DNA from: an uncultured Gemmatimonadota bacterium | GTDB lineage: Bacteria; JAAXHH01 | DNA: 64,000 nucleotides | Assembly: GCA_964593235.1 (NCBI GenBank) | Contig: CAZQGS010000039.1 | Location: forward strand, 44,394-108,393 | Direction of reading: 5' to 3' | Shown: one piece after another, positions 12,428 to 57,097 of the stretch | Numbering within the stretch: the first letter of the stretch is position 1 | How the letters are laid out: each line of letters begins with the position of its first letter | The notes under the pieces: generated by a model | Database searches by the model: none | What the model was told of the DNA's origin: nothing | What the model saw: the letters and a program-made list of their open reading frames with translations, nothing else | Program-made: the position numbers and the translations under genes

Positions 12428-12468
12428 CAGTTTATTCCTTTCAATATTGGTTTATTTAGTAATTTTAA

Positions 12469-18695: not shown

Positions 18696-18777
18696 ACCAA
18701 GAAAATTCTTACTACCGATTTCATAGTAGGTTAAATAACTAAAACCAAAATATTTTTTTAACTATGGGAGTACTCCA

Positions 18778-19422
18778 ATGCCAAAAGCTTTATTCGTCTG
18801 GGGAGGCTGGGAAGGTCATGAGCCCAAAGATACTCAGGACGTCTTCATTCCACTTCTGGAAATGGAGGGATACAAAATTACTCAGAGTGACAATCTTGAT
18901 TCCTATCTTGATTCCGAAGCAATGAAGACCTATGACCTCATCGTACAAACTGTAACCATGAGTACTATCACTGGGGCTCAGGAAAAAGCACTTTTAGATA
19001 CCATCGCGAGTGGTACTGGTTTTGGAGGGTGGCATGGAGGCCAAGCAGATGCTTTTCGTAATAACACTAATTACCAGTACATGGTAGGTGGTCAATGGGT
19101 GTCCCATCCTGGAGGTATAATTAACTATCAAGTCAATATTCTTGACCATCAAGATCCTATAACTGCTGGCTTGGATGACTTTGCAATGCATTCGGAGCAG
19201 TACTACATGCATGTTGACCCCTCTAATCATGTGCTAGCAACGACAACCTTTAGCGGGGATAATGATGCTTGGGTTGAGGGGACCGTGATGCCCGTTGCAT
19301 GGAAACGGAGATGGGGTAAGGGGAAAGTTTTTCATTGTACTCTCGGCCATGTTGCCGCCGATTTTAAAGTTACAGCAGCTAAAGAAATTGTACGACGTGG
19401 CTTGATCTGGTGCACACGCTAA
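18778..19422 (+). CDS. ThuA-like (type-1 glutamine amidotransferase-like fold) protein
   Basis: 214 aa ORF. The pattern [13 protein letters not shown]...[10 protein letters not shown] is characteristic of the ThuA / trehalose-utilisation family. Confidence 0.6.
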
Positions 19423-20449: not shown

Positions 20450-21298
20450 ATGGATACGGCTCTCGAAAAATTCAACTCAGATGGATACTTAATCCTTAAA
20501 AATTTCTATCCTAATAGAATAATAGAAGCCGCTCGAGGAGCCGCAAGTGAACTAGTTGATAGAGTTGCTATTCGACTTTTAGAATCTGGAAAAATTTCAA
20601 AAAGTTACTCAGATCAGCCTTTCGAAAGTAGATTAGCTCGGATATGTGATGTTGTCCCAAATGATGTTCCCCATATATTTCGGAAAGAACTCCATCTACT
20701 AGGTATGTACGATGTATTTTTTTTCTCACCGCTGTTAGATATAGCCGAATCCCTACTTGGCCAGGAACTCCGGCTTTACCCAAACTATTCGATTCGCCCT
20801 AAGTTGCCTGACCACGCTCCTACTCATGTCCTCTGGCATCAGGATGGTGGATATACCTATAAACTCCATTTAGATGGAGATTATAACACCACAATTGTTG
20901 ATAGTTTAAAGATGATTAATGTATGGTCTCCTCTCGTTCCAGCTCGAGAAGAAAATGGTTGTATGCAGTTTATTCCTGGAACCCACAAGATTGGTATGGC
21001 TCAACACGAAGACCGGGAGTTTTACCTTGAGATAGCTCAGGATGACCTGGTACCTTTTTTGGATAAAGCTGTGTCGATCGAACTTGACCCTGGAGACATA
21101 GTCCTGTTTCATAATATGCTCTACCATCAAGCACTACCCAATCATTCTGACCATGTCCGGTGGAGTATGGATTGGCGATACCAAGATGCTCGTCAATCAA
21201 CCCTTCGCCCCACGCAAGGACATTTAGCGCGTAGTCAAATAAACGAAAGTCAGGTAGTATCAAGTGCTGTTGACTGGGCGCAAAGAGTCTTTGGATAG
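20450..21298 (+). CDS. PhyH-family Fe(II)/2-oxoglutarate-dependent dioxygenase (paralog 3)
   Basis: 282 aa ORF. FNSDGYLILKNF, HxD (LWHQDGG) and distal His (IPGTHKIG). Confidence 0.65.
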   Translation: MDTALEKFNSDGYLILKNFYPNRIIEAARGAASELVDRVAIRLLESGKISKSYSDQPFESRLARICDVVPNDVPHIFRKELHLLGMYDVFFFSPLLDIAESLLGQELRLYPNYSIRPKLPDHAPTHVLWHQDGGYTYKLHLDGDYNTTIVDSLKMINVWSPLVPAREENGCMQFIPGTHKIGMAQHEDREFYLEIAQDDLVPFLDKAVSIELDPGDIVLFHNMLYHQALPNHSDHVRWSMDWRYQDARQSTLRPTQGHLARSQINESQVVSSAVDWAQRVFG

Positions 21299-27954: not shown

Positions 27955-28085
27955 ATATCTTTGTTATGTTGGTCTGGTCACAATAGAAGTTATAATTCTC
28001 AATAGATTTTATCAAAATCAGCTAAAGGGAAAATTTAAGAGGTGTCAAATCAAGAAAGTATAGATGTATTAAAAAGGAGGTGGGG

Positions 28086-28970
28086 ATGGCTATGTTTGGG
28101 GACCCTGAAAACTTTATTGTAATGAGTGATCGTGAGAAATACCTATATGACCTTCAGGGCTTTCTTGTCGTCCGCAACTTTCTGTCCCAGGAAGAAGTGG
28201 AAAACTTGAACAATGCTATCAATGCTAATCTAGATAAGGCTAGCCAACATGATCCAGGTGGTACTCTTGATGGAACACCACTGGCCGGACCCAATGCCCA
28301 ATATATTCATTACAACGGAATGTTAACCTGGGAGCAACCCTGGTGTCAACCTTTCCGTAACTTACTAGCCCACCCCAAACTAATCCCCTACCTCAATACC
28401 GTGATGGGAAGAGGTTGGAAGCTTGACCATAATATCGATATACTGACTTCGAAGGTGGGAGCTCAAGGCACACCCTTTCATGGAAACAGTACTGGAATGT
28501 TTAATGGGTCCACCTATTATATGTATGACGATGGTCGAATGCGAAGTGGGTTAAATGTCTGTCAATTTTACCTGACCGATGTAAATCCTGGTGATGGAGG
28601 ATTAGTAGTAATTCCTGGAAGCCATAAAGCCAATTTCCCGATGCCGAGTTATGTCCGGCATTATGAAGACCATCCAGAAATTTATCACCATATTATTATT
28701 AAAGCAGGTGATCTTGTTATCTTTAATGAGGCTACTACTCATGGTGCACTACCATGGAAAAGCGATGAAGAACGTCGATGTGTGCTCCACCGCTACATTC
28801 CTAAATATATGCACTACGATGGTGGAATTTATGAGACCCAGATGCCCGAGTGGACTAAAGAACTTACTGAAGCTCAGCGAGCTGTCTTAGAACCCCCTTA
28901 TATTTATAATCGTCCCCTGATTGGAGATGATGGACAAACAATCGTGAAACCTCGGAGAGAGGGGTTGTAA
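28086..28970 (+). CDS. PhyH-family Fe(II)/2-oxoglutarate-dependent dioxygenase (paralog 4; first of tandem pair)
   Basis: HxD (LDHNID), GDGGLVVIPGSHKANF and AGDLVIFNEATTHGALPW. ATG 28086 is 5 nt after aaggagg; the GTG at 28080 is too close to the SD. Confidence 0.7.
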   Translation: MAMFGDPENFIVMSDREKYLYDLQGFLVVRNFLSQEEVENLNNAINANLDKASQHDPGGTLDGTPLAGPNAQYIHYNGMLTWEQPWCQPFRNLLAHPKLIPYLNTVMGRGWKLDHNIDILTSKVGAQGTPFHGNSTGMFNGSTYYMYDDGRMRSGLNVCQFYLTDVNPGDGGLVVIPGSHKANFPMPSYVRHYEDHPEIYHHIIIKAGDLVIFNEATTHGALPWKSDEERRCVLHRYIPKYMHYDGGIYETQMPEWTKELTEAQRAVLEPPYIYNRPLIGDDGQTIVKPRREGL

Positions 28971-29018
28971 AATTACTATTCATCTGAATTATATTACATC
29001 TAAAATCAACCTACTAAC

Positions 29019-29888
29019 ATGAACCAAGCCGGCTTACCCTACATTACTATGCAGCCGCACGAAAAATACCTATTTGATTTGCAGGGATTTATTGTAGTCC
29101 GTAATGCCCTCACTCCTTTGCAGGTTAGAGACCTTAATAGGGCTTTGGAAGCTAATGCGGATAAACGCGAACAGGACACTGCGTCTGACACCAGTACAGC
29201 CTTGAGAGGTAATCGGTACCGCGGCCTTTATGAAGGAATGCTTTCTTGGGAAAAGCCTTGGTGTTTACCCTTTCGTGAAGTGCTAGCTAATCCTAAAGTT
29301 ATTCCTTATTTGAATACATTATTAGGCCGCGGATGGAAATTGGATCATGAACCCTTTATCTTTACATCCAGTGCTGGTACAGAAGGGCTTCGTCTTCATG
29401 GACATGGGTTATCCGAGTATAGTGGCTCTAGATTTTATACTTATCAAAATGGGTCTATGCGTTGCGGGTTGATCAACTGTCAGTACCAATTAAATGATGT
29501 CAATCCAGGAGATGGAGGACTATGTATTATCCCAGGTAGTCATAAAGCTAACTTTAAACTTCCGACTGACATTTCTGGCTATGAAGAAAATCAGGATATT
29601 GTATATCACGTCCCTATGAAGGCAGGGGATCTTGTTATATTTAATGAATCAACCACCCACGGTACCCTGCCTTGGCAAGGTAAACAAGAACGTCGTTCTC
29701 TTTTCTATCGCTATACCCCTAAATATATGCATTATGCTGGGGGCATGTATAAAACTAAAAATCCAGCGTGGGTCAAAGAACTCACGGACGTACAACAAGC
29801 TGTTTTGGCCCCTCCATATGTCTACAATAGGCCATTAATCGACGATGGTGGTGTTTCAATATCAATGCCCCGTCGGGAAGGTGAATGA
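29019..29888 (+). CDS. PhyH-family Fe(II)/2-oxoglutarate-dependent dioxygenase (paralog 5; tandem duplicate of the preceding gene)
   Basis: Collinear with paralog 4, with the same motif blocks: LDHEPFIFTS, GDGGLCIIPGSHKANF and AGDLVIFNESTTHGTLPW. Confidence 0.7.
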   Translation: MNQAGLPYITMQPHEKYLFDLQGFIVVRNALTPLQVRDLNRALEANADKREQDTASDTSTALRGNRYRGLYEGMLSWEKPWCLPFREVLANPKVIPYLNTLLGRGWKLDHEPFIFTSSAGTEGLRLHGHGLSEYSGSRFYTYQNGSMRCGLINCQYQLNDVNPGDGGLCIIPGSHKANFKLPTDISGYEENQDIVYHVPMKAGDLVIFNESTTHGTLPWQGKQERRSLFYRYTPKYMHYAGGMYKTKNPAWVKELTDVQQAVLAPPYVYNRPLIDDGGVSISMPRREGE

Positions 29889-29898
29889 AAGGAATACT

Positions 29899-31533
29899 AT
29901 GACTGGCAATCAAGCCATAGCGAAAATACTTTCAATCGAGGGACTTGATTGGTTTAGTTGCTTTCCACATCATCCACTTATAGACGCCTGCGCGCTCGAA
30001 GGAATGCGCCCCATTCTATGCCGCCAAGAACGTGCTGGAGTAAATATCGCCGATGGGTTTAGTCGAATTAAAAATGGTAATACTATAGGTGTATTTATGA
30101 TGCAATCAGGCCCCGGAGCGGAAAATGCTTTTGGTGGAGTAGCCCAAGCGTATGCTGACTCTGTACCTATTCTTCTTTTACCAGGGGGGCCCCCAAGATC
30201 GCGAACGGGTTCCGATCTTACCTTCGAAGCGGTTAAGAATTATCAAGGTGTTACTAAATGGGTCTCTAATATAAATTCTGCTGCTCGCATACCCACGATG
30301 ATGCGTAAGGCATTCAGCTCACTAAAACAGGGCAAACCTGGACCGGTAATGCTGGAAATCCCATCTGATGTGGGCGAAGAAATAATCCCTGATCACTCTC
30401 TAGATTATGTACCCGTCAAACCTTTTAAAAGTGGTGCTTCCCAAGAGGATGTCCGTGATCTAGTCTCAGCTCTTCTTAGTGCCGAATGTCCCGTAATAAG
30501 TGCCGGTCAGGGGGTTTTATATGCTGAAGCATCAGAGGAATTAATTGATTTTGTTGAATGGACTAAGATACCTGTTATGACTACACTTTCAGGTAAAAGT
30601 GCGTTTCCTGAAACTCATCCATTATCACTTGGAACCGGAGCTGCTTCACACTCCCTGATGGTTGCTACCTACCTTAAAAAAGCAGACTTTTTCTTTGGCC
30701 TTGGTACGAGCATGACTTCTGGATTTAAGGCTGAGATCCCTAAAGGAGCAGTTCTTGCTCAATCTATCATAACTCATGAAGATGTTAATAAAGAACACCA
30801 AATAGAATATGGGGCTATTGGAGATGCAAGAATAGTATTACAACAACTTCTCGAAGAAGCTAAAAAACAGCTTGGAGGGAAACCTCGGTCCGATACCAAA
30901 GGCAATGTCCTCGAAATATCCCGGTTAAAGAAAATATGGTTAAACCAGTGGGAACCACATTTCTGCTCAAATGAGGTCCCTTTAAGTCCTTATCGAGTTT
31001 TCCGTGAAATTGCTAGCTTAGTCGATAATACTAGGTCAATTATTACTCATGATTCTGGGTACCCACGGGAACAATTAGCTCCTTTTTGGGAAACAGTCAC
31101 ACCACGGAGCTACATAGGTTGGGGAGCTTCAACTCAATTAGGTTACGGTCTGGGACTAGCTATTGGTGCTAAAATTGCAAACCCTGAGAAGCAGGTAATC
31201 AATATTATGGGGGATGCTGCCTTTGGCATGGCCGGGTTAGATATAGAAACGGCTGTGCGTTCGGAAATTCCGATTCTAACAATAATATTAAATAATGGTG
31301 TGATGACCCACTATGATCATCATATGGCTTATGCAACGAAACGCTGGGGCAGCAATAAATTAGGTGGGGATTATGCCACCATCTGTAAGGGAATGGGGGC
31401 CCATGCTGAAAAGGTTTCCTCTCCAAAACAGATAGGTCCAGCTATTCAACGTGCTTTAGCAGCAAATATTGAAGGGAAACCTGCAGTAATTGAAGCAATA
31501 ACTAAAGTGGAAGAAAACACTTCTCGGTACTGA
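29899..31533 (+). CDS. thiamine-diphosphate-dependent enzyme of the acetolactate synthase / oxalyl-CoA decarboxylase / 2-hydroxyacyl-CoA lyase family
   Basis: N-terminal Pyr domain (GNQAIAKIL...RQERAGVNIADGFSRI), a central domain, and a C-terminal ThDP-binding IMGDAAFGM...NNG motif. The start ATG 29899 (RBS aaagga) is 10 nt after the upstream PhyH stop; the track ORF begins earlier at 29845, inside that PhyH gene. Confidence 0.8.
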   Translation: MTGNQAIAKILSIEGLDWFSCFPHHPLIDACALEGMRPILCRQERAGVNIADGFSRIKNGNTIGVFMMQSGPGAENAFGGVAQAYADSVPILLLPGGPPRSRTGSDLTFEAVKNYQGVTKWVSNINSAARIPTMMRKAFSSLKQGKPGPVMLEIPSDVGEEIIPDHSLDYVPVKPFKSGASQEDVRDLVSALLSAECPVISAGQGVLYAEASEELIDFVEWTKIPVMTTLSGKSAFPETHPLSLGTGAASHSLMVATYLKKADFFFGLGTSMTSGFKAEIPKGAVLAQSIITHEDVNKEHQIEYGAIGDARIVLQQLLEEAKKQLGGKPRSDTKGNVLEISRLKKIWLNQWEPHFCSNEVPLSPYRVFREIASLVDNTRSIITHDSGYPREQLAPFWETVTPRSYIGWGASTQLGYGLGLAIGAKIANPEKQVINIMGDAAFGMAGLDIETAVRSEIPILTIILNNGVMTHYDHHMAYATKRWGSNKLGGDYATICKGMGAHAEKVSSPKQIGPAIQRALAANIEGKPAVIEAITKVEENTSRY

Positions 31534-31552
31534 AAAAGAGTAAAGGAGTATT

Positions 31553-32992
31553 ATGCTAAGAATTCTGGTAGGTACATATTTCCAAGAAACTAACGATTTT
31601 CACCCAAACCACACAATTTACGAGGATTTTAACGTTCTATACGGGCAAACAATGCTTAAAGATCCAGACGGCGTGGTTAAAGGAGCGATAGATACCCTTT
31701 CCTGTCGCTCTGGATTAGAAATCATACCAACATACAGTGCGGCTATGGGGGCTGGAGGAACTATAACTCAAGAGTGCTTTGAACGCATTTCTTCAGAATT
31801 ACTCAAAGCGATTTCAGACCATAATTCAAATATCGACGGAGTGTACCTTAACCTTCACGGGGCAATGGCTGCAGAGATAGAAAAAGATCCAGAAGGTTAT
31901 ATTTTACAAGAAGTAAGAGAAATTGTTGGCCCGGAAATTCCAATAGTAGCCTCTTTTGATATGCATGGAACGATAACACGACGGATGTTAACTCACATGG
32001 ACGGATGTAGTATACTACATACTTATCCCCATATTGATTGGTACGAAACTGGAGCTCGTGCCGCAGAGGTACTGTTACGTATCCTTGATGGTGCTCAGCC
32101 TGTAATTGCAAGCGTATATACTCCTACTATGGTTAGAGGTGATGAACTTAAAACTAGTGGTGGAGTCCATGGAACTTTTATCCGATATATTGAACGTTTA
32201 GAAGAAAGAGATGACGTACTGGCTGGTGGCATAATGCTTGGACATCCTCCAACCGATTGTCCGGAACAGGGATCTCGGATCATTTTAATTACAGACAAAA
32301 ATCGGATATTAGCTAAAAAGGAAGCATTGTACTTGGGGGAAACCTTCTGGCAGATGCGTTCATATATGCAATGTACAATGTATAGCGTTGAAGAGGGTAT
32401 TAAAATAGCTAGTAATGCTAAAGGTCCTATCGTGTTTGCTGATGCTGCTGACGCGACTAGTTCTGGAGCCCCAGGTACTAGCAATACGATATTAAAAGGG
32501 TTGCTGGAAAGCAATTATAAGGGGAAGGTCTTGTTTCCCATCTGCGATGAACCAGCGATAAAAAATGCCATGACGGCAGGGATTGGTCAGACAGTCACTA
32601 TTTCACTAGGTGGAACAAAAGATCCGCGTTTTACTCCGGTTCAAATTACCGCAACCATCGAGGTACTTGGTCAAAAAGATGGTGTTCCAATTGCCGTACT
32701 TAAATGCAAAAATATTATCTTATTTGTTGCAGCCTCTGGCCCTCTCCTCTGTGACCGTTGGATTTTTCCTGCCTTCGGTCAAGACCCAAAAGATTTTGAT
32801 ATTATCGTCAAAAAATTACCTCATACCCCTGACGAATGGTACGATGACTGGGCGGAACGAACCATCACCCTAGACACACCTGGTGCAGCAAGTCCTAATA
32901 TCCCGAGCCTAGGGCATCAATTTGTCACTCATCCAATCTATCCGCTTGATCCCAAAATGAGTTTCATTCCTGAAGTAGAGTTATACGAATAA
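31553..32992 (+). CDS. MlrC-like (peptidase M81 / DUF1485-DUF1446) hydrolase
   Basis: N-terminus MLRILVGTYFQETNDFHP plus LNLHGAMAAE blocks are typical of microcystinase-C family proteins. 19 nt after the ThDP enzyme. Confidence 0.7.
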   Translation: MLRILVGTYFQETNDFHPNHTIYEDFNVLYGQTMLKDPDGVVKGAIDTLSCRSGLEIIPTYSAAMGAGGTITQECFERISSELLKAISDHNSNIDGVYLNLHGAMAAEIEKDPEGYILQEVREIVGPEIPIVASFDMHGTITRRMLTHMDGCSILHTYPHIDWYETGARAAEVLLRILDGAQPVIASVYTPTMVRGDELKTSGGVHGTFIRYIERLEERDDVLAGGIMLGHPPTDCPEQGSRIILITDKNRILAKKEALYLGETFWQMRSYMQCTMYSVEEGIKIASNAKGPIVFADAADATSSGAPGTSNTILKGLLESNYKGKVLFPICDEPAIKNAMTAGIGQTVTISLGGTKDPRFTPVQITATIEVLGQKDGVPIAVLKCKNIILFVAASGPLLCDRWIFPAFGQDPKDFDIIVKKLPHTPDEWYDDWAERTITLDTPGAASPNIPSLGHQFVTHPIYPLDPKMSFIPEVELYE

Positions 32993-33040
32993 TATAGTCC
33001 GCTAACTCTTCTAAATATTATTTTCCATTAGGGAGAAGAA

Positions 33041-33964
33041 ATGAACCGGCATGTTACTAGCGGCCGTTGGGGGTTGGGGTTAATTCTAAGTTTATTTACA
33101 ATCTTAGTTTGGGGAAGCCTACCTCTTGTCCTAAAAATAATGCTTATTAGTTTAGACGCTTTCACTATGACATGGTACAGATTTATAATCGCTGCCATTT
33201 TAATGACGATAATTGTTTATCGAAAAAATTATTTCCCCTTAGTGAGAAAAATAAAAGGAGGATATATTCCTCTTTTTGTTTTCTCAGTGTTAGGGTTCAG
33301 TTGTGCCTACGTATTCTATCCTCAAAGTCTCCAGTACATTTCTCCTAGTGCTGCGCAGGTGGTTAGTCAAGTTTCGCTTCTCTTCTTGCTGCTAGGTGCA
33401 ATGTTTGTATTTCGCGAACGATTAACCTTAATACAGTTATTTGGAATTGGACTACTGATAGCTGGTATCTTATTGTTTTTTAATAAACAGCTGATTTTTT
33501 TGATTTCAGACACAAGTGACATGTTACCTGGAATTCTTTGGGTCACAGCAGCAGCTCTAGCGCTCTCTTTATATACCTTAACTCAAAAACAATTACTCCA
33601 GATACTCCCTACCTCCTTCATTATATGGCTAATTTATCTTGTAGGCTCTGTACTAATTCTTCCATTCATTCGATTTGAAACTCTTTTAGAACAGAACCCT
33701 CAAGAATTTATCCTCTTAAATATTTCAGCAGTTATTTCTTTGGTGGCTTTTATTACTTTAGTGGAATCTTTAAAACACTTGGAGGTATTTAGGGTGAGTA
33801 TGATTCTAGCAACTGTTCCTATAGTTACCATAGTAGATATGGCTATAATTTCACCATTAGTTCCTAACCTACTTCAACCAGAGAATCTAACCCTTTTAAG
33901 TATCTCAGGTGCTGTACTGGCTGTTATTGGATCTATTTTGGGCAATTTAAAGAAAACCAATTAG
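33041..33964 (+). CDS. DMT-superfamily (EamA-like) transporter
   Basis: 307 aa ORF with about 10 predicted TM helices and duplicated EamA-like halves. Confidence 0.65.
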   Translation: MNRHVTSGRWGLGLILSLFTILVWGSLPLVLKIMLISLDAFTMTWYRFIIAAILMTIIVYRKNYFPLVRKIKGGYIPLFVFSVLGFSCAYVFYPQSLQYISPSAAQVVSQVSLLFLLLGAMFVFRERLTLIQLFGIGLLIAGILLFFNKQLIFLISDTSDMLPGILWVTAAALALSLYTLTQKQLLQILPTSFIIWLIYLVGSVLILPFIRFETLLEQNPQEFILLNISAVISLVAFITLVESLKHLEVFRVSMILATVPIVTIVDMAIISPLVPNLLQPENLTLLSISGAVLAVIGSILGNLKKTN

Positions 33965-34044
33965 AGCAGCTAACTACTTTATCGCAATACTTTAGAAACA
34001 GGAAAACAAAACTTTTCATGTGGTCGTATTAAAGGACATATAAA

Positions 34045-34554
34045 ATGAAACCACTAATAGTGATGGGATTACGAACTCTGGCACATCTTGAGGCTAAAGC
34101 AACTCTGTACGAGGAAATTAACCAAAATACCATAACCGCTAGGCGGAGATTCCCTAAAGAAGATATGGAGTTACTGGTAGGTGCCGGATTTACCCTTGGG
34201 ATACTTTCGAGTCACAGTGTTCCCCGGAGTCAGAAAGTTATTGAATATCTAGATTTGGCTCATCTCTTTCCCGAACGTCATCTAATTTGCTCCAGTCCAC
34301 TAGACAGAAAAGAGGCTTTAAACTGGCAAGAATGGAGCCAAACTTTTAACAAACGTGGCCTATCTATTCATACAGTGATCGATATCGGAGATACATTAAT
34401 CCGAAACCTTGCTAGTTCCCCTAATTTTAAAGATATTGATAAATACTTAATTACAGATGACACCACAATAAAGATTGAGGGTGCAAAATGCCTTAAAACA
34501 TTAGATCAGATAGAAGCATATGATCTGGCCAAACAAAAAGGACACAACAATTAA
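34045..34554 (+). CDS. hypothetical protein
   Basis: 169 aa ORF with no recognisable motif. Followed by a strong terminator. Confidence 0.4.
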   Translation: MKPLIVMGLRTLAHLEAKATLYEEINQNTITARRRFPKEDMELLVGAGFTLGILSSHSVPRSQKVIEYLDLAHLFPERHLICSSPLDRKEALNWQEWSQTFNKRGLSIHTVIDIGDTLIRNLASSPNFKDIDKYLITDDTTIKIEGAKCLKTLDQIEAYDLAKQKGHNN

Positions 34555-34628: not shown

Positions 34629-34662
34629 TCACCCGAGAGTAGAATATCTCGGGTGATTTTTT
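34629..34662 (+). terminator. rho-independent terminator
   Basis: Perfect 10-bp stem tcacccgaga/tctcgggtga, an 8-nt loop, then tttttt. Confidence 0.85.
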
Positions 34663-34767
34663 AAGTCGTTCCTTAGTAATGACAGATTGGGTTTAGAATT
34701 TGCTCCTATTTTAAAAAAAAGTATAAAAATAACGCTAATACCATCTTGTCTAGCCTAAAGAACCAAT

Positions 34768-36528
34768 TTACTTTTCCCAAGGGAAAGAAAAAGAAGGTCT
34801 ATTTGCATAACGCTTCATTGATACGTTGAGTGTACTACCACATCCTGGAGCTAGATGGACGGTAAAATTGGAATCGTCTACTGAAACCGCTCCGTTTTCG
34901 TCACTGACCTCCGTAATCTGATGCTCGCCATATGCTCCTCCATTAACGACCACAGTTCTTGCAGATACCTGATTCGTATTAACCAGTGTTAATGTGGCAC
35001 TTTCATCATGGAGTCCTTCTACCAAAGCTGCGACATCTTCCGGCATACCTGGACGATTTCTAGATGGATCAAAATAACGGAACCTGCAGTGTAACGGATG
35101 ACCAAAATGTTCTGTCGGCATCCCACCCAGCATAAGTTGAATCAGTGCATCCACGGCTGCTGGATTCGTACCATTCATATCATCAGACAACCGAGTGTCC
35201 GGTGAGGACAAGTCATCCTGCAACCGCTCCATTCGTGACCTAACTACGCCAATATCTTTCTGAAACGCTTCGACAGGATAATCAGGATTATTACCTTGTA
35301 GAAATCCAACCCAACCATCTTTGGGTAACCGTTCTAGATCACGCGAATCCATAGACCAGTAGTAAACCTGCAAAGCTCCGTTATCAAAAGGTTCAGGCTG
35401 GTAATCGTACCATCCTTCATCACCATGCATACGTGGATATAGAGTTTTTCCATCTTCCACCTTACTGTGATCATTAATATAATCTATAACGCCGCGCCAT
35501 GTATCTACGTACTTCTGATCACCTGTAAGCAATAATCCATTTCCAAAACTCCAATGAACTCGATGAAGGAAATAGGGACGATGAGCCAAAAGTCCCGTTT
35601 GGGGTACGATAGTAGAAAAGCCCCAGCCATACACACCCCCATACCAACGTCCACCAGCCGCCCCTCCTATAGTCCCATCCAGTCCTATATTAGTTGGAAT
35701 AATGCCGTTATTCTTTTCAGTCCGATCGACCCAGGCATCAAGATAATCTTTTGTCCAGTTACTATATTTTTCGTCCCCATCAATCATATAAGCATTTAAA
35801 GTCATTGTGGTTACACCCATATTTAATGGGTGATCGCCAGCAACATCATTATAATCTTTAAAATGAGCAATCATTTCCTCATAGTTTCGTTCACCATGCC
35901 CTGGCTTAAAACGGCCCTCTACTTCAAGTGAGTCCCCAGCCCAATCAAGCCCTGTTGCTTTACGTAACATAGAACCTCGGCTACCGTTAAACATACTCTT
36001 AATAACGCGGTGTTCTGGGATATAATTATCTGCGATAGGATCTTCTCCCATATAGAAACCCGAAAAACGCCTAGTACGATCGATAAATTTCTTATCTGTC
36101 GGATCACAGAGGCCCTGGAGAAAAAATGCTGTATAACCTTCTCCATTATGCATCCAATCGAACATGGTTGGGAATTCTTTAAAATACATCCCATCTCGGG
36201 CAAATTCTACTTCAGTTGTTTTTGCTTCTGAGTACTGTAAAAGGTGACCATCCCAAGCTTTTTTATAAAGTTCATAGACCTGATCCGAAGCACCTATAGC
36301 ATAAAGCTCCGGCCAGTTAGCAAAATTCTCCGCCGCATCATCAGGCCCATCATCACCACCCCAACGGGGAACACATAAGAGATAACCCCGTTCATCAAAA
36401 TAGTGGTTATAGAATGCTTCTATAGCTTCTTCTTGTTGTTTTATTAATGTTCTTTCTAGGAGTGCCCATGCAGGCGGCGCCATAGGTGAAGTAATACTTT
36501 TAGTTGTTTCTTTTAAAGCGGCAGCCAT
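34768..36528 (-). CDS. conserved hypothetical protein (586 aa), immediately downstream of lpxA on the same strand
   Basis: Long uninterrupted ORF, no signal peptide. Rich in W/Y/G/D (e.g. GHGERNYEEM, DGDEKY, WYGGVYGWGF). No family recognisable by eye. Confidence 0.5.
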   Translation of the reverse strand: MAAALKETTKSITSPMAPPAWALLERTLIKQQEEAIEAFYNHYFDERGYLLCVPRWGGDDGPDDAAENFANWPELYAIGASDQVYELYKKAWDGHLLQYSEAKTTEVEFARDGMYFKEFPTMFDWMHNGEGYTAFFLQGLCDPTDKKFIDRTRRFSGFYMGEDPIADNYIPEHRVIKSMFNGSRGSMLRKATGLDWAGDSLEVEGRFKPGHGERNYEEMIAHFKDYNDVAGDHPLNMGVTTMTLNAYMIDGDEKYSNWTKDYLDAWVDRTEKNNGIIPTNIGLDGTIGGAAGGRWYGGVYGWGFSTIVPQTGLLAHRPYFLHRVHWSFGNGLLLTGDQKYVDTWRGVIDYINDHSKVEDGKTLYPRMHGDEGWYDYQPEPFDNGALQVYYWSMDSRDLERLPKDGWVGFLQGNNPDYPVEAFQKDIGVVRSRMERLQDDLSSPDTRLSDDMNGTNPAAVDALIQLMLGGMPTEHFGHPLHCRFRYFDPSRNRPGMPEDVAALVEGLHDESATLTLVNTNQVSARTVVVNGGAYGEHQITEVSDENGAVSVDDSNFTVHLAPGCGSTLNVSMKRYANRPSFSFPWEK

Positions 36529-36596: not shown

Positions 36597-37409
36597 TTAC
36601 GATGTAAGTCCACGACCATCTTTTTGACTTCTGTAGACACTCTCCTTAATAAAGGAAATTAACGTTTTAACATCATTAGTTTGGTCTACATCCCGCACAA
36701 CTACTTTGATAGCTTGGGAAATATTAAGTGAAGATCGAAAAAGTATGCGATAGGCTTTTTTAAGGGCAGCTAAAGCTTCAGTAGTAAATCCACACCGGGT
36801 TAGACCAATTGTATTGAGCGAAACTGGTTTTAGAGGTTCCCGTCCATATTTAATATATGGGCAGATATCCTTAGAAACTTTAGAACCACCACTAACAAAA
36901 GCGTTACGGCCAATTTGAACGAATTGATGAACAGCAACGAGACCTCCAGTAATAGCAAAGTCCTCGATTTCGACATGCCCTCCTAACTGTGTACCATTAG
37001 CCAGAATAACATTATTACCGACTATGCAATCATGAGCTACATGGACATAAGCCATAATCAACGTGTCGCTACCAATTACTGTTTTACCCAAAGCACTCGT
37101 CCCCCGATTCAAAGTAGCAAACTCTCGAATTGACGTACGTTTTCCTATCTGTAAACTGGACTGTTCACCAACAAATTTCTGATCTTGGGGAATGGAACCA
37201 ACAACCGCACCATGATAAATTTTACATTCCTCACCAATGGTCGTATGGGCACCTATCAATGCACTTGACGCAATCTGGGCACCCGGTTCTATCACCACAT
37301 TATTTTCGATTATTGTGTACGGCCCAATACTACAACCTATGCCAACCTCGGCAGTGGGATGTACTATTGCTGTAGGATGAATAGTAGTTTGGGAAGACAA
37401 ATTTGTCAC
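36597..37409 (-). CDS. lpxA: acyl-ACP--UDP-N-acetylglucosamine O-acyltransferase
   Basis: Left-handed beta-helix hexapeptide repeats ([31 protein letters not shown]...). 270 aa. 4-nt overlap with lpxC/fabZ. Confidence 0.9.
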
Positions 37410-38803
37410 TTTGAAATCTCTCTGTCTGTAATCATCGCCATAAGTCCAGCTTCAGCGACTAATTCATCATCAACGTACGCTCTTCCTTCCATCTTGCAGG
37501 CCTGCATACGCATTCGGAGCATTTCTAATTCAAGACGAATTTGATCACCAGGTTTTACTAGTTTACGAAACCTAGCCTGATCTATTCCCATAAAATATGC
37601 CATTTTACTTTGTGGGTTGTCTATTGTATTAAGAAGTAATAATCCCCCAGCCTGAGCCATTGCTTCAATAATTAGGACACCAGGCATAACCGGGTGCCCT
37701 GGAAAATGACCAGAGAAAAACGGCTCATTGAAAGTTACATTTTTCAGAGCGACAACCCGTTTACCAGGTTCCATATCAATAACCCTATCTATAAGTAAAA
37801 AGGGATACCGATGCGGTAGGAGTTCCAGAATATCTTCGATATCAAGAACTTTTTCTGAAGAAGGCACTTCTTCAGATTGCTTCTTTACACAAACGTTTCG
37901 GATTCTTCTAACAAGCTCGATGTTCGCGGAATGAGAAGATCGAGCTCCAAAAATTTGAGCCTTAAGAGGTGCCCCAAGTAAAGCTAGGTCCCCGATCAAA
38001 TCTAAAGCCTTGTGTCGACATGGTTCATTGTCAAATCGAAGGGGTTGGGTGCCTACTATGCCATTTTCCCCGAGCTCTATTCTATCTTCTACTCCAAAAA
38101 GGTCTTTTAATTCGTCTAACTCCCCATCCGATAGATCCAAATCGGCTATTACTATAGCGCTTTCTAAACTTCCTCCCTTTATAAGACCTCTTTCTCGCAA
38201 AGTCTTGATGTCACTGAGGAATGTCCATGTTCTTGCGGGAGCTATCTCCGTAGCAAATTCATCTTCTAATGAATAAACAACGGTATATTGACTAGAAAGG
38301 TTAGATTTCTGATAATCGACCATATAAGTAAGATGAAAATCATCCGCCGGCATTGCGACAAGTTCTTTTAAAAGTCCATCTTCTTTTTCAGAATAAAGGA
38401 CTGGTTTGTCCAATTCTAAATATACCTTGGGCTTATTTTGCTCTATTATACCTGCCTCCAGCAATACATTAACAAATGGGGCAGCACTTCCATCACATAT
38501 TGGCGGTTCTGGTCCATCCAGTTCTATAATCAGATTATCGATCCCAAGTCCGGCCACAGCAGCAAGAACATGTTCAACCGTATGGACCCGAATACCATCC
38601 TTTTCAAGATTAGTTCCTCGGGTGGTATCTACCACATAGTCAATATCAGCGGGTATTTCTATGCTACCTGGACTATCTTTTCGAATAAATCTAATGCCCC
38701 CATTTCCATTTTCTGGATTAAACGTTAATTTCACTTCGGATCCAGTATGTAACCCTATACCCGTTACTGAAGCTGATTTTTTTATAGTACGTTGTTTAAA
38801 CAT
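37406..38803 (-). CDS. lpxC/fabZ: bifunctional UDP-3-O-acyl-GlcNAc deacetylase / 3-hydroxyacyl-ACP dehydratase (LpxC-FabZ fusion)
   Basis: The N-terminal 300 aa carry LpxC blocks ([19 protein letters not shown]). The C-terminal 150 aa carry the FabZ hot-dog signature [13 protein letters not shown]...[16 protein letters not shown]. Confidence 0.9.
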
Positions 38804-38809
38804 TTTGCC

Positions 38810-39859
38810 TTACTCCGAAGTCTCTAGTGCTTTGAGACGAGCGTCCATAGCTTTAATATGGTTATCTAGGTTTTGGATCTGCTGTAACAGCTCTGGTAGT
38901 CGTTTGAGTGCAACTTCAATCCTTCTTGCTTTGGTATGCGGGCGAGCTGGATAGCCTGAAACCGTTGATCCATCAGGGATGGATTTAGTCACACCAGCCT
39001 GCCCACCGATTTTAGATCCTTGGCCAACCTTAATATGATCTGAAAGTCCGGCTTGACCTCCGATTAAAGAACCAGATTCAACCACTGTGCTGCCAGCAAT
39101 TCCAACCTGTGCACATATGGTAACGTTGTTTCCGATTACAACATTGTGGCCAATTTGAACTAGATTATCAATCTTTGTTCCACTCCCTATTCGAGTCATT
39201 CCCATAGTTGCCCGATCAATTGTAGTATTAGCACCGATTTCAACGTCATCACTAATCTCTACACCTCCAACCTGTGGGATCTTTTTTGCAGAATTATCTT
39301 TGGGATAATACCCGAATCCATCACTACCTATAATTGTCCCGCTATGAATAATTACACGCTCTCCTATAGATACTCCATCATACAAGGTTACATTTGGGAA
39401 AATCCATGTACCTGAGCCAATGCGACAATTACTACCAACTATTACTCCCGACCCAATATTCGTTTTCCGGCTCACCCTAGTGCGAGGCCCAATTGATACG
39501 TAGGGTCCTATATCTACTTCTTCTTCAACTTCAGCAGAAGGGTGTATTTCTGCTGTCGGATGAATACCTTCTTCTGCGGGAATATGGCTGTCAAAAAAAG
39601 TCATTAATAATGTAACCAAGGCGTCTTCTGGCGATGCAACCCGCACAATAGGAATTGGTGCCTGTTTAATCTCAAGAGGAACGACAACGGCAGTAGCCTG
39701 TGTAGAATTTAGCCTTTTACCATGGCGGGCATTAATAAGCACCGCAATTGAACCCTTTTGAGCTTCTTCGAGAGGGTCAACACTTTTAATATCACAAGAA
39801 CCGTCACCAATTAATTCCCCTTGGATTAGTGTGGCTATATTTGTTAATTTATGATACAT
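38810..39859 (-). CDS. lpxD: UDP-3-O-(3-hydroxyacyl)glucosamine N-acyltransferase
   Basis: 349 aa ORF. N-terminal LpxD domain followed by extensive hexapeptide repeats. Confidence 0.9.
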   Translation of the reverse strand: MYHKLTNIATLIQGELIGDGSCDIKSVDPLEEAQKGSIAVLINARHGKRLNSTQATAVVVPLEIKQAPIPIVRVASPEDALVTLLMTFFDSHIPAEEGIHPTAEIHPSAEVEEEVDIGPYVSIGPRTRVSRKTNIGSGVIVGSNCRIGSGTWIFPNVTLYDGVSIGERVIIHSGTIIGSDGFGYYPKDNSAKKIPQVGGVEISDDVEIGANTTIDRATMGMTRIGSGTKIDNLVQIGHNVVIGNNVTICAQVGIAGSTVVESGSLIGGQAGLSDHIKVGQGSKIGGQAGVTKSIPDGSTVSGYPARPHTKARRIEVALKRLPELLQQIQNLDNHIKAMDARLKALETSE

Positions 39860-39866
39860 GGATCGT

Positions 39867-40397
39867 TTACTTTACTTCCTTCTGAAGTTCCTCAAGGACT
39901 GCCCCTGTGAGGTCTCGTGCCTTTAGAGGATCTACATATACAAGAGCACTGGCATCAAAGATATACGTGAAATTTTCAGCTTTAGCCAAGCTTTGCACCA
40001 CGTTGAAGATGCTCTCCTGCAACGGCCTAGTAAGTTCCACCTCTTGTTGGGCAAGCTGCATCTGCGAATTTTGAGCAAATTGCATTAATTCTTGTTCCTT
40101 CTGTAAAATATTCTGCTCATCCTGCTGTCGTCTGGCTGCAGTCAACATAGTTTTCCGGGCATCATATTGTTGCTTGAGGATTTCGACTTCTTGCTGCTTA
40201 TTTTGAACCTGTTCCTGGACTGCTCTGGCAGCTTTCTGAAAAACTTCCTCAGCATCCCTAAAACCTTGATACGATTGACGCAGCCGTTCCATATCAAGAT
40301 ATCCTATTTTTAGATCTTGCCCTTTAGCAAATTCTGGCAAAAGAAATATAACTACCGCAACAGTTACTATTTGAAACAATCTCTTCGATGTTAACAT
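39867..40397 (-). CDS. skp: OmpH/Skp periplasmic chaperone
   Basis: 176 aa ORF with a signal peptide, then a Q/E/K-rich coiled-coil (QEQVQNKQQEVEILKQQYD). Lies between bamA and lpxD. Confidence 0.75.
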   Translation of the reverse strand: MLTSKRLFQIVTVAVVIFLLPEFAKGQDLKIGYLDMERLRQSYQGFRDAEEVFQKAARAVQEQVQNKQQEVEILKQQYDARKTMLTAARRQQDEQNILQKEQELMQFAQNSQMQLAQQEVELTRPLQESIFNVVQSLAKAENFTYIFDASALVYVDPLKARDLTGAVLEELQKEVK

Positions 40398-40453
40398 TTT
40401 TCTTCCTCCTCAGATACGGGAGATACCCCCCGGAATCTCTATGAACAGATAAA

Positions 40454-53089: not shown

Positions 53090-53174
53090 CTTCCAACAAA
53101 TGTTATTACTCTATATCATTAGAACAAATTCATATCGCCAAAATTACAAAACTTTTGTACATACATTTCTCAGA

Positions 53175-55211: not shown

Positions 55212-55256
55212 AATCCTACCACCCTGCTAATTTCAAAAATATCAGGTTAGGCTACA

Positions 55257-56708: not shown

Positions 56709-56725
56709 TACTTCCCCTCTCTATA

Positions 56726-57094
56726 TCAAGATCGATAAATTCCATAGGCTAAAATAAGCCAACCAAAAATGAAAGCAACCCCACCCACAGGCGTTATAAA
56801 ACCCAACCATTTAATTCCAGTTAGGCTTATTAGGTATAAACTCCCAGTAAATAACATTATACCTAATATAAATGAGACACCGGCTATATTAAAGATCGAA
56901 TCTTCCCACCGTGAAATAGCCCACGCCACAAATAGAAGGGCCAGAGCATGGTAAATTTGGTACCGAACTCCAGTCTGGAAAACTTCCAGGGATTCGGGAA
57001 CCATTAGATTCTTTAAGCCATGTGCAGCAAATGCGCCCGCCAAAACCCCCATAAGGGCTGCTATACAACCTACTATAGCAAAAACTTTATCCAT
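56726..57094 (-). CDS. DUF423 (YgdD-like) small membrane protein
   Basis: 122 aa ORF with four TM helices. N-terminal pattern GALAGAFAAHGL. Confidence 0.55.
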   Translation of the reverse strand: MDKVFAIVGCIAALMGVLAGAFAAHGLKNLMVPESLEVFQTGVRYQIYHALALLFVAWAISRWEDSIFNIAGVSFILGIMLFTGSLYLISLTGIKWLGFITPVGGVAFIFGWLILAYGIYRS

Positions 57095-57097
57095 AGT

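What the first reader, a model, noticed from the sequence alone, without database searches (positions are those of the whole stretch)
28086..33964. Operon of two tandem PhyH dioxygenases + ThDP-dependent ALS/HACL-family enzyme + MlrC + EamA exporter: candidate bacterial alpha-oxidation / 2-hydroxyacyl cleavage module
- Linkage seen in sequence: five co-directional genes are packed with 48, 10, 19 and 48 nt gaps, so they are almost certainly co-transcribed.
- What the pairing means in eukaryotes: there, phytanoyl-CoA 2-hydroxylase (PHYH, the founding member of this dioxygenase family) is followed in the pathway by 2-hydroxyacyl-CoA lyase HACL1, a ThDP enzyme of the acetolactate-synthase / oxalyl-CoA-decarboxylase family. 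Together they shorten 3-methyl-branched and 2-hydroxy fatty acids by one carbon.
- Supporting context: a long-chain acyl-CoA synthetase (1718-3379), a ceramidase-like protein and a dienoyl-CoA-reductase-like protein are elsewhere in the same window.
- Why it matters: bacterial alpha-oxidation of chlorophyll-derived isoprenoid acids (phytanate/pristanate) is essentially uncharacterised. A duplicated hydroxylase feeding an HACL-like lyase would be a compact, testable pathway.
- Open points: the MlrC (M81) and EamA partners are unexplained and could indicate a different substrate class, such as a modified peptide or amino acid.
Basis: partly seen in the sequence, partly recalled or inferred. Interest (0 to 1): 0.72.

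Follow-up and report, generated by a model that had tools for sequence, protein, structure and literature searches.

The report
Uncharacterised oxygenase–thiamine enzyme–peptidase operon
A real, tightly packed six-gene operon from an uncultured marine or sponge-type bacterium combines two unusual iron oxygenases, a thiamine-dependent enzyme of unknown function, a zinc hydrolase and a membrane transporter, but the tests run here do not support the proposed fatty-acid alpha-oxidation pathway.

Summary
Five co-directional genes sit at the stated coordinates with gaps of 48, 10, 19 and 48 nt. The unit probably extends to a sixth small ORF (34045-34554) and a terminator-like hairpin (34629-34656).

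The alpha-oxidation reading is not supported:
- **PhyH paralogs.** They belong to a conserved environmental subfamily that lacks the canonical HxD motif and carries the HygX-type relocated acid ligand (H-G-x...E-x3-H). Their nearest solved relatives act on glycosides and terpenoids, not on CoA esters.
- **ThDP enzyme.** It is a member of the uncharacterised family NF004807/PRK06154. It is equidistant from HKA synthases, glyoxylate carboligase, HACL/OXC and ALS. Three of the four arginines conserved in HACL/S for acyl-CoA or ADP binding are missing at the aligned positions.
- **Context.** No CoA-activating gene is linked.
- **Conservation.** Of 80 species genomes carrying this ThDP family, only the two closest share the cluster. 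One more divergent metagenome contig keeps PhyH-B, ThDP, M81 and EamA with two inserted genes.

Best reading, with moderate confidence: a lineage-restricted catabolic module in which oxygenases or dehydrogenases create a carbonyl and the ThDP enzyme cleaves next to it, acting on a polar, non-CoA substrate. The substrate is unknown.

The parts
28076..28080 (+). Shine-Dalgarno-like GGAGG, 5 nt upstream of the PhyH-A ATG
   Evidence: Read directly from the sequence. It supports the ATG at 28086 over the mechanical GTG at 28080.
28086..28970 (+). PhyH-A: Fe(II)/2-oxoglutarate oxygenase of a HygX-like variant-triad PhyH subfamily. It is a lineage-specific duplicate with the 'FHGN' motif.
   Evidence: PF05721, 72.9 bits. 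Invariant residues are H132-G133, E215-x3-H219 and R230. Best PDB match by sequence and by fold is HygX. It is 56 % identical to PhyH-B. Orthologues at 75 % identity or more occur only in the close lineage.
29019..29888 (+). PhyH-B: paralogous oxygenase of the same subfamily ('LHGH' motif). This is the widespread type.
   Evidence: PF05721, 61.1 bits. Most metagenome relatives score best against PhyH-B. A 71 % orthologue sits in the L119 cluster.
29899..31533 (+). ThDP-dependent enzyme of the uncharacterised family NF004807/PRK06154
31553..32992 (+). M81 (MlrC-like) zinc hydrolase, probably active; not a microcystinase orthologue
   Evidence: PF07364 244 bits and PF07171 93 bits. The MlrC equivalog model scores 115 bits against a cut-off of 999. 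Zn-site residues E12, H102, D136, H138 and H160 match MlrC E56/H150/D184/H186/H208, the last four with the same spacing (the Glu lies 4 residues closer). Best PDB match is 3iuu, E 1e-44.
33041..33964 (+). DMT-superfamily (EamA) inner-membrane permease; transport direction unknown
   Evidence: PF00892, two repeats, 109 bits. It is conserved with the block at 61 % identity in L119.
34045..34554 (+). 169-aa ORF with no known family, probably the last gene of the operon
   Evidence: No Pfam, NCBIfam or PDB match. It holds the same position in L008/L009, L015, L017, L018 and L104 (about 190 bits) and is absent from L119.
34629..34666 (+). Terminator-like hairpin plus T-run; probable end of the transcript, possibly bidirectional with the convergent DUF8034 gene
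   Evidence: 10-bp stem with 6 GC pairs, 8-nt loop, followed by TTTTTT.

Best explanation
**What it is.** A six-gene operon (28086-34554) of an uncultured marine or sponge-type bacterium. Public records label its closest relatives Gemmatimonadota or Latescibacterota. It most likely encodes a cytoplasmic catabolic module for a polar organic substrate that is not a CoA ester.

**Proposed order of events (all inferred)**
1. The EamA permease moves the compound, or a product, across the inner membrane.
2. The M81 zinc hydrolase opens an amide or peptide-type bond.
3. The two Fe(II)/2-oxoglutarate oxygenases, PhyH-B and its duplicate PhyH-A, hydroxylate the substrate and further oxidise a carbon next to a carbonyl or carboxyl group. 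In relatives an SDR appears to do the second step.
4. The ThDP enzyme decarboxylates or cleaves the resulting 2-oxo, alpha-hydroxy-carbonyl or 1,2-dicarbonyl unit.

**Shown**
- Gene order, spacing and operon borders.
- Family memberships.
- Intact cofactor and metal motifs in all four enzymes.
- The variant HygX-type iron site.
- Conservation of the PhyH-B/ThDP/M81/EamA block in a divergent contig.

**Inferred**
- Direction (catabolic), order of steps, chemistry and substrate class.
For: **Operon**
- Gaps of 10-80 nt, a Shine-Dalgarno sequence, a terminator-like hairpin, and synteny breaks exactly at both ends.

**Functional coupling**
- L119 keeps the order PhyH-B, [ceramidase-like], ThDP, M81, [SDR], EamA, with unrelated flanks.
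- L010-L012 have a ThDP orthologue at 77 % identity flanked by an SDR and three other PhyH genes.

**Oxidoreductase-plus-ThDP logic recurs for this ThDP family**
- In SAR202 the order FAD_binding_2, NHL/SGL, ThDP recurs: NHL/SGL lies 22-43 nt upstream in 6 genomes and within about 800 nt in 11 (14 of 73 loci in all), with FAD_binding_2 upstream in 8.
- ThDP and GFO_IDH_MocA overlap or lie within 4 nt in 4 genomes (98 nt in a fifth).

**The PhyH subfamily recurs next to oxidoreductases and glycoside hydrolases**
- A specific SDR on the same strand: 7 of 70 loci, plus L119.
- GFO_IDH_MocA: 10 of 70 loci.
- GH43/32/130-like and GH26-like proteins.

**Other points**
- SDR present where PhyH-A is absent (L119), and the reverse in the window, fits substitution of the second oxidation step.
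- Cofactor sites are intact.
- M81 orthologues elsewhere sit beside GH123-like, GlcNAc 2-epimerase and sulfatase genes, which points to glycoconjugate-type substrates.
- The nearest solved oxygenase, HygX, acts on an aminoglycoside.
- No CoA-handling gene is in the operon.
Against: - No enzyme of these exact families has a known substrate, so every chemical step is inference.
- The association is confined to one lineage (ThDP at 74 % identity or more). 78 of the 80 genomes sampled with the ThDP family, and about 68 of 70 loci with the PhyH subfamily, lack it.
- PhyH genes are so dense in these genomes (5 of 51 ORFs here) that some adjacencies, such as L010-L012, could be chance.
- EamA-family proteins are often exporters.
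- The nearest structural neighbours of both enzyme types (HygX, SnoK, AndA; BbmA/CsmA) are biosynthetic. That fits a biosynthetic reading as well.
- The central domain of the ThDP enzyme scores marginally best against HACL/S (61.6 bits, against 57 for BbmA and 54 for Gcl).
Confidence: 0.4

Rival explanations
1. Small biosynthetic cluster. The ThDP enzyme acts as a carboligase, making an acyloin or alpha-hydroxy-beta-keto acid from 2-oxo acids. The two oxygenases tailor the product, M81 trims a precursor, and EamA exports it.
For: - The nearest folds of PhyH-A are natural-product tailoring oxygenases: HygX, SptF, SnoN/SnoK and AndA.
- The best NCBIfam matches of the EamA protein are exporters, all below cut-off.
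Against: - There are no core biosynthetic genes.
- The PhyH subfamily and the M81 orthologues sit beside glycoside hydrolases, sulfatases and ABC importers.
- Similarity to BbmA is no greater than to HACS, ALS or Gcl.
Confidence: 0.15
2. One reading: bacterial alpha-oxidation. The PhyH enzymes 2-hydroxylate a branched acyl-CoA, and the ThDP enzyme, acting like HACL, splits it into formyl-CoA and an aldehyde one carbon shorter.
For: - PF05721 and the ThDP DC-family fold are present.
- One 66 %-identical homologue lies beside two CoA_transf_3 genes on the opposite strand.
Against: - The PhyH paralogs lack HxD and are HygX-like. Human PHYH scores only E 1.6e-4 and is absent from the top 50 fold matches.
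- The ThDP enzyme belongs to NF004807, and no Oxc or HACL model is among its top 25 NCBIfam hits.
- Arg260, Arg276 and Arg400 of HACL/S align with Ala, Ser/Asp and Ala.
- The operon has no acyl-CoA ligase, aldehyde dehydrogenase or formyl-CoA-handling gene.
- The AMP-binding gene is 25 kb away among housekeeping genes.
- M81 and EamA have no role in this model.
Confidence: 0.06
3. Operon of convenience. The genes are co-transcribed but do not act on one substrate. The PhyH adjacency reflects the very high density of PhyH genes in this lineage.
For: - 5 of the 51 ORFs in the window are PhyH-family, and there are two M81 genes.
- Expansion of PhyH genes to about 2 % of all genes is documented for Poribacteria (PMC3909097).
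- The ThDP, PhyH and M81 orthologue groups each occur mostly in other contexts.
Against: - The four-gene core recurs in the same order in L119 despite unrelated flanks and two insertions.
- Gaps of 10-48 nt are maintained across relatives at about 80 % identity.
Confidence: 0.12

Closest known systems
HygX and the orthosomycin oxygenases (AviO1, EvdO1/2), PhyH-fold Fe(II)/2OG enzymes
   Same: - Best PDB match by sequence (E 2e-8) and by fold (Foldseek E 1e-15).
- Shares the relocated acidic ligand: E-x3-H before the distal His, and no Asp/Glu conserved two residues after the first His.
   Different: - Only about 20 % identity, with TM-scores of about 0.6-0.7.
- The third motif position is variable (N, H, S, E, D) rather than Gly.
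- HygX is a biosynthetic oxidative cyclase in an antibiotic cluster. Here the enzymes sit in a small operon with a ThDP enzyme and a hydrolase.
Eukaryotic peroxisomal alpha-oxidation (PHYH plus HACL1)
   Same: Both have a 2OG oxygenase of Pfam PF05721 next to a ThDP enzyme of the decarboxylase (DC) superfamily. The general logic of hydroxylating and then cleaving with ThDP may be shared.
   Different: - No HxD triad.
- The ThDP enzyme is outside the HACL/OXC family and lacks three of its four conserved Arg residues.
- No CoA-activation or aldehyde-oxidation genes.
- The M81 and EamA partners are foreign to that pathway.
NF004807 / PRK06154 'thiamine pyrophosphate-requiring protein' (uncharacterised)
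   Same: Full-length match above the curated cut-off (681 against 607 bits). Homologues are 47-65 % identical (mostly 56-65 %) across SAR202, Latescibacterota, Poribacteria, Entotheonella, Gemmatimonadota, Spirochaetia and Acidobacteriota.
   Different: Only the subclade at 74 % identity or more is linked to PhyH and M81. Elsewhere the partners are NHL/SGL-like, FAD-dependent and GFO_IDH_MocA oxidoreductases.
Ring- or diketone-cleaving ThDP pathways (IolG/IolE/IolD of inositol catabolism; cyclohexane-1,2-dione hydrolase)
   Different: No IolD model is among the top NCBIfam hits. Here oxygenases rather than IolG-type dehydrogenases sit beside the ThDP enzyme. The resemblance is analogy only.
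Microcystinase MlrC (M81)
   Same: Both Pfam domains and all five Zn-site residues are present, the last four with the same spacing (the Glu lies 4 residues closer).
   Different: 115 bits against an equivalog cut-off of 999. There are no mlrA, mlrB or mlrD genes. The closest solved protein is the uncharacterised 3iuu.

Membership tests
Phytanoyl-CoA 2-hydroxylase (PHYH) orthologues | PF05721 double-stranded beta-helix domain | tested here: met
   72.9 and 61.1 bits against a cut-off of 22.
Phytanoyl-CoA 2-hydroxylase (PHYH) orthologues | Canonical His-x-Asp...His iron triad (human H175/D177/H264, from my own knowledge) | tested here: not met
   The motif is H132-G133-N134 in PhyH-A and H-G-H in PhyH-B. 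The third position varies across 120 homologues. The invariant acid is E215, four residues before H219.
Phytanoyl-CoA 2-hydroxylase (PHYH) orthologues | PHYH is the closest characterised relative | tested here: not met
   HygX scores E 2e-8 against 1.6e-4 for human PHYH 2a1x. The Foldseek top 50 are HygX, SptF, SnoN/K, AndA and similar enzymes; PHYH is absent.
Phytanoyl-CoA 2-hydroxylase (PHYH) orthologues | Binds an acyl-CoA substrate | not testable with these tools
   No coordinates or docking are available, and no CoA-bound PHYH structure exists to map residues from.
HygX-type variant-triad 2OG oxygenases | H-X-G...E-X3-H metal motif (PMC13374393) | tested here: inconclusive
   E-x3-H is invariant and aligns with that of HygX. 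The first His is followed by an invariant Gly, but the third position is N or H rather than G. phmmer aligns the first-His region of HygX nine residues off, so the equivalence rests on spacing and predicted strands.
HACL / oxalyl-CoA decarboxylase (ThDP, CoA-ester) family | Three-domain ThDP fold with a catalytic Glu and a GDG...NN motif | tested here: met
   TPP_enzyme_N/M/C are all present. E44, G438-D439 and N465-N466 are invariant. This feature is shared by the whole DC superfamily.
HACL / oxalyl-CoA decarboxylase (ThDP, CoA-ester) family | Profile membership in an Oxc or HACL model | tested here: not met
   The best model is NF004807 (681 bits). The next are ALS 288, Gcl 239 and Xsc 211. 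No Oxc or HACL model is among the 25 listed, the lowest of which scores 181 bits.
HACL / oxalyl-CoA decarboxylase (ThDP, CoA-ester) family | Conserved Arg260 and Arg400 (ApbHACL/S numbering) that bind acyl-CoA (PMC11271303) | tested here: not met
   Arg260 aligns with Ala in 'GTGAASH', a position that varies across the family. The 'DIGR' Arg of 8vzj aligns with Ala in 'EQLAPFW'. Caveats: identity is about 26 %, and an invariant Arg390 lies four residues upstream.
HACL / oxalyl-CoA decarboxylase (ThDP, CoA-ester) family | ADP-binding Arg156 and Arg276 in the central domain | tested here: not met
   Arg276 aligns with Asp or Ser in 'ADFFFGLGTSMT'; the family has an invariant G-T-S there. Arg156 was not examined.
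HACL / oxalyl-CoA decarboxylase (ThDP, CoA-ester) family | Genomic link to CoA ligase, CoA-transferase or formyl-CoA handling | tested here: not met
   None is present in the operon or in 78 other genomes. The only case is two CoA_transf_3 genes on the opposite strand beside a 66 % homologue.
NF004807 / PRK06154 ThDP-requiring protein | Full-length score above NCBI's curated cut-off | tested here: met
   681.3 bits against 607, covering residues 14-561 of the protein and positions 15-562 of the 565-position model.
Biosynthetic acetolactate synthase (AHAS) | Score above the equivalog cut-off, with an adjacent small regulatory subunit | tested here: not met
   TIGR00118 scores 288 bits against a cut-off of 538. 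No ilvN/ilvH-like neighbour is present.
M81 metallopeptidase (MlrC-like) | DUF1485 and MlrC_C domains plus Zn-site residues (E56, H150, D184, H186, H208 in MlrC) | tested here: met
   244 and 93 bits. E12, H102, D136, H138 and H160 are present; the last four keep MlrC's spacing (the Glu lies 4 residues closer) and all five are conserved in 113-115 of 115 homologues.
Microcystinase MlrC (equivalog) | NF041767 score above cut-off, with mlrA/B/D context | tested here: not met
   114.9 bits against a cut-off of 999. No mlr neighbours are present.
DMT / EamA transporters | Two EamA repeats in a protein of about 300 aa | tested here: met
   PF00892, two stretches, 109 bits. Transport direction and substrate were not testable.

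The most novel reading that the evidence does not exclude
The operon is a first handle on two large 'dark' enzyme groups of marine and sponge-associated bacteria: the expanded PhyH oxygenases of the Poribacteria/Latescibacterota type, and the NF004807 ThDP family common in SAR202. On this reading they form a CoA-independent oxidative C-C cleavage route. HygX-type oxygenases or an SDR make an alpha-oxygenated carbonyl on a host- or algal-derived amide or glycoconjugate fragment, and a new ThDP lyase or decarboxylase shortens it.
Probability: 0.2. Interest if true: 0.7.

Novelty: new variant of a known kind. Interest (0 to 1): 0.42.

Why it matters
- **Open questions it touches.** PhyH-family oxygenases make up about 2 % of genes in Poribacteria, and their role has been unknown since 2014 (PMC3909097). 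I found no literature on the NF004807 ThDP family, although it is 47-65 % conserved across at least seven phyla of marine heterotrophs and sponge symbionts.
- **What this operon offers.** It physically couples a member of each group with a hydrolase and a transporter. That gives a compact, expressible system for finding a substrate.
- **A direct finding.** A whole environmental PhyH subfamily (322 clusters at 50 % identity with E <= 1e-30) shares the relocated acidic iron ligand. In the literature I read, that arrangement is described only for HygX. This can be tested by mutagenesis.
- **What it is not.** It does not provide evidence for bacterial phytanate alpha-oxidation.

Tried and rejected
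- **Literature.** Searches for PRK06154, for BbmA/CsmA and for 'thiamine pyrophosphate-requiring' with SAR202 found nothing usable. DUF1485 returned only a microcystin paper.
- **A single conserved partner of the ThDP family across 80 genomes.** None dominates. The best is NHL/SGL-like, in 14 of 73 loci.
- **M81 orthologue contexts in four genomes.** No PhyH or ThDP is nearby.
- **The small ORF and DUF8034.** Neither has a significant PDB, Pfam or NCBIfam match.
- **RNA elements.** No Rfam family, including any riboswitch, is found anywhere in the window.
- **Promoter upstream of PhyH-A.** The sigma-70-type scan found nothing there and was not enriched over shuffles.
- **Readings rejected.**
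  - Microcystin degradation: the score is far below cut-off and there are no mlr partners.
  - Phosphonate catabolism of the PhnY/PhnZ type: only 21 bits to the PhnY-type model and no HD-domain gene.
  - Ectoine hydroxylase: 23 bits against a cut-off of 336.
  - Acetolactate synthase: 288 bits against a cut-off of 538.

Full report
**1. Observation**

The ORF list shows five + strand genes at the stated coordinates. The gaps are 48, 10, 19 and 48 nt.
- PhyH-A starts at the ATG at 28086, which a GGAGG at 28076-28080 precedes.
- The ThDP gene starts at 29899. A 100 %-identical 544-aa protein is in the public collection, and homologues are 544-548 aa long.
- Pfam confirms PF05721 twice, TPP_enzyme_N/M/C, DUF1485 plus MlrC_C, and EamA twice.

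I add two features. A sixth ORF (34045-34554, 169 aa, no family) follows after 80 nt, and a terminator-like hairpin with a T-run lies at 34629-34666.

In relatives with about 80 % identical proteins (L008/L009, L015, L017, L018) the six genes stay together. Other genes are inserted immediately upstream (an M78 peptidase and DUF6338) and downstream (an M20 peptidase). The operon borders are therefore 28086 and about 34660.

Two caveats apply. All genes from 13.7 to 34.6 kb are on the + strand, so co-directionality alone means little. PhyH genes are also very dense here: 5 of 51 ORFs, together with two M81 genes.

**2. The two PhyH paralogs**

They are 56 % identical to each other. They belong to a subfamily that is 55-65 % identical across records labelled Latescibacteria, Poribacteria, Chloroflexi and Chthonomonadaceae. 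A full HMMER scan of 1.84 billion cluster representatives finds 322 clusters at E <= 1e-30 and 1551 at E <= 1e-10.

An alignment of 122 members shows the following:
- The canonical HxD motif is absent.
- The first His (H132) is followed by an invariant Gly and then a variable residue: N in PhyH-A, H in PhyH-B, and S, E, D, Y or A elsewhere.
- The motif E215-x3-H219 is invariant, as are R230/R231.

Spacing supports the equivalences. H219 to R230 is 11 residues and H132 to H219 is 87. From my own knowledge, human PHYH has H175/H264/R275, which gives 89 and 11.

A 2026 review describes exactly this arrangement, H-X-G...E-X3-H with the acidic ligand relocated, as the peculiarity of HygX (PMC13374393).

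HygX is also the closest solved relative.
- By sequence it scores E 2e-8, against 1.6e-4 for human PHYH.
- By fold it is the top match, using an AF2 model with pLDDT 79 and Foldseek E 1e-15. It is followed by SptF, SnoN/SnoK, AndA and TlxIJ. PHYH is not in the top 50.

PhyH-A orthologues at 75 % identity or more exist only in the close lineage. PhyH-B is the widespread type. So these are probably functional Fe/2OG oxygenases of a variant-triad clade, and they are not PHYH orthologues.

**3. The ThDP enzyme**

NCBIfam places it in NF004807 (PRK06154, 'thiamine pyrophosphate-requiring protein') at 681 bits against a cut-off of 607. The next models are ALS (288), glyoxylate carboligase (239) and sulfoacetaldehyde acetyltransferase (211). 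No Oxc or HACL model is among the 25 listed.

Comparison with solved structures does not discriminate.
- PDB sequence search gives BbmA 1.4e-52, Gcl about 1e-51, HACL/S 2e-48 and AHAS 1e-43.
- The central domain alone scores marginally best against HACL/S (61.6 bits, against 57 and 54). A longer fragment puts Gcl first.

HACL/S enzymes conserve R260 and R400 for acyl-CoA binding and R156 and R276 for ADP binding (PMC11271303).
- In the printed alignments R260 falls on Ala ('GTGAASH') and R276 on Asp or Ser ('GLGTSMT').
- The 'DIGR' arginine falls on Ala ('EQLAPFW').
- The family consensus has no Arg at these columns either.
- The caveats are about 26 % identity and an invariant R390 four residues upstream.

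The catalytic Glu44 and the GDA...NN motif are invariant, so the enzyme should be active.

**4. M81, EamA and the small ORF**

The M81 protein has both Pfam domains. It also has all five Zn-site residues reported for MlrC (E56, H150, D184, H186, H208; PMC12474180), here as E12, H102, D136, H138 and H160; the last four keep MlrC's spacing and the Glu lies 4 residues closer. It scores 115 bits against a cut-off of 999 for the microcystinase equivalog. Its best solved relative is the uncharacterised 3iuu.

EamA is a standard two-repeat DMT permease. The 169-aa ORF has no detectable relatives of known function.

**5. Conservation and context**

- Only L017 and L018 (79-81 % identity) carry the cluster. 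The other 78 have no PhyH-A/B-type, M81 or EamA neighbour.
- The recurrent partners elsewhere are oxidoreductases and a lactonase-like protein.
- In SAR202 the order is FAD_binding_2, NHL/SGL, ThDP. NHL/SGL lies 22-43 nt upstream of ThDP in 6 genomes, within about 800 nt in 11, and near it in 14 of 73 loci.
- In 4 genomes the GFO_IDH_MocA gene overlaps ThDP or starts within 4 nt of its end; in a fifth the gap is 98 nt.
- UxuA-like TIM barrels also occur nearby.

*PhyH subfamily.* A metagenome scan with a PhyH subfamily alignment kept 79 loci.
- One of them, L119, has PhyH-B (71 %), a 432-aa protein weakly similar to the window's ceramidase-like gene, ThDP (76 %), M81 (72 %), an SDR and EamA (61 %).
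- Its flanks share nothing with the window.
- L010-L012 have a ThDP at 77 % identity, an SDR and three non-orthologous PhyH genes.
- The link therefore holds within the ThDP subclade at 74 % identity or more and survives rearrangement, but it is lineage-restricted.

*PhyH partners elsewhere.* In other contexts the PhyH subfamily sits beside:
- a specific SDR on the same strand (7 of 70 loci);
- GFO_IDH_MocA (10 of 70 loci);
- GH43/32/130-like and GH26-like proteins;
- an Opp-type ABC importer, a fucosidase, a sulfatase and an amidohydrolase.

*M81 orthologues.* Those at 56-67 % identity in Poribacteria and others sit beside GH123-like, NHL/SGL, Ldh_2, SDR, GlcNAc 2-epimerase and sulfatase genes.

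**6. Interpretation**

The shared theme is an oxygenase or dehydrogenase next to a ThDP enzyme, in genomes and neighbourhoods rich in glycoconjugate- and amide-processing enzymes and lacking CoA-handling genes. I therefore favour a catabolic module for a polar, non-CoA substrate, with confidence 0.4.

The proposed steps are transport (EamA), amide hydrolysis (M81), hydroxylation and further oxidation next to a carbonyl (PhyH-B, then PhyH-A or an SDR), and ThDP-dependent cleavage or decarboxylation. L119 has an SDR and no PhyH-A, and the window has the reverse. That fits, but does not prove, substitution at the second oxidation step. All chemistry is inferred.

| Rival | Confidence |
|---|---|
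| Small biosynthetic cluster | 0.15 |
| Operon of convenience | 0.12 |

**7.

- The AMP-binding enzyme (1718-3379) lies among an aminotransferase, an M50 protease, URO-D and a protoporphyrinogen-oxidase-like gene.
- The ceramidase-like gene (59274-60554) and the OYE-like gene (60698-62152) belong to a second cluster. That cluster also holds M81 #2, an SDR, an enolase-superfamily protein and a GFO_IDH_MocA gene.
- None of these is linked to the operon.

**8. Novelty and score**

The components belong to known superfamilies. The exact families (NF004807; the HygX-like PhyH subfamily; this M81 clade) have no known function in the libraries and literature searched here, and I found no description of this combination. 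I rate it a new variant of a known kind, namely a small oxidative metabolic operon.

Interest is 0.42. It is a useful experimental entry point to the long-noted PhyH expansion in sponge symbionts (PMC3909097) and to an abundant marine ThDP family. It has no demonstrated chemistry, and the headline alpha-oxidation claim is not supported.

Noticed in passing
window 12469-13296 (-), 17838-18695 (+), 20450-21298 (+), 28086-28970 (+), 29019-29888 (+): Five PhyH-family genes among 51 ORFs in 64 kb. Only 20450-21298 has the canonical WHQD (HxD) motif. The density matches the PhyH expansion reported for Poribacteria (PMC3909097).
   Followed up: partly
window 52046-62152 (mostly - strand): A second cluster reuses the same toolkit: GFO_IDH_MocA (52046-53089), an unknown 678-aa protein (53175-55211), M81 paralog #2 (55257-56708, 30 % identical to the operon copy), a 122-aa protein (56726-57094), an SDR (57098-57898), an enolase-superfamily protein (58007-59266, +), a ceramidase-like protein (59274-60554) and an OYE-like flavoprotein (60698-62152).
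   Followed up: partly
window 17838-19422 (+) and 11090-13296 (-): One PhyH gene sits directly upstream of a ThuA-like (trehalose-utilisation family) gene. Another sits next to a class-III aminotransferase on the same strand.
   Followed up: no
window 34768-36528 (-); locus L132 1205-3930: The convergent DUF8034 gene (586 aa, no PDB match) stays next to the operon in all close relatives. In metagenome contig L132 a DUF8034 homologue directly follows a PhyH-B-type gene on the same strand, so it may belong to the same functional set.
   Followed up: partly
proteins P0363, P0365, P0366, P0369, P0377, P0379: Fused double-PhyH proteins of about 500-580 aa exist in this subfamily. The N-terminal domain has lost the first His (motif 'GG[GN]EP'). 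In five of the six read, the distal His is also lost (P0363 keeps one), while the C-terminal domain keeps both. This suggests tandem PhyH pairs may work as heterodimers with one degenerate partner.
   Followed up: partly
loci L019-L056 (SAR202) and L030, L038, L040, L041, L094: The NF004807 ThDP gene forms apparent operons with FAD_binding_2 plus an NHL/SGL-like gene in SAR202. In Latescibacterota, Gemmatimonadota and Chloroflexota it pairs with a GFO_IDH_MocA gene that overlaps it or starts within 4 nt in four loci (98 nt in L038).
   Followed up: partly
window 36597-42883 (-): An outer-membrane and lipid A cluster holds lpxA, a fused lpxC-fabZ gene (37406-38803, 465 aa), lpxD, ompH and bamA. 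The LpxC/FabZ fusion is conserved in the relatives.
   Followed up: no
window 8071-9585 (+): The uroporphyrinogen decarboxylase ORF is 504 aa, but the URO-D domain covers only residues 166-500. Either the mechanical start is too early or there is an N-terminal extension of about 165 aa.
   Followed up: no
window 1-64000: No Rfam family reaches its gathering score anywhere in the 64 kb. No riboswitch and no other RNA family in Rfam, tRNA or rRNA included, is found (no separate tRNA scan was run).
   Followed up: yes
loci L002/L003 11821-15148: A 66 %-identical ThDP homologue lies beside an epimerase and two CoA_transf_3 genes on the opposite strand. This is the only CoA-related neighbourhood seen for the family.
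   Followed up: no
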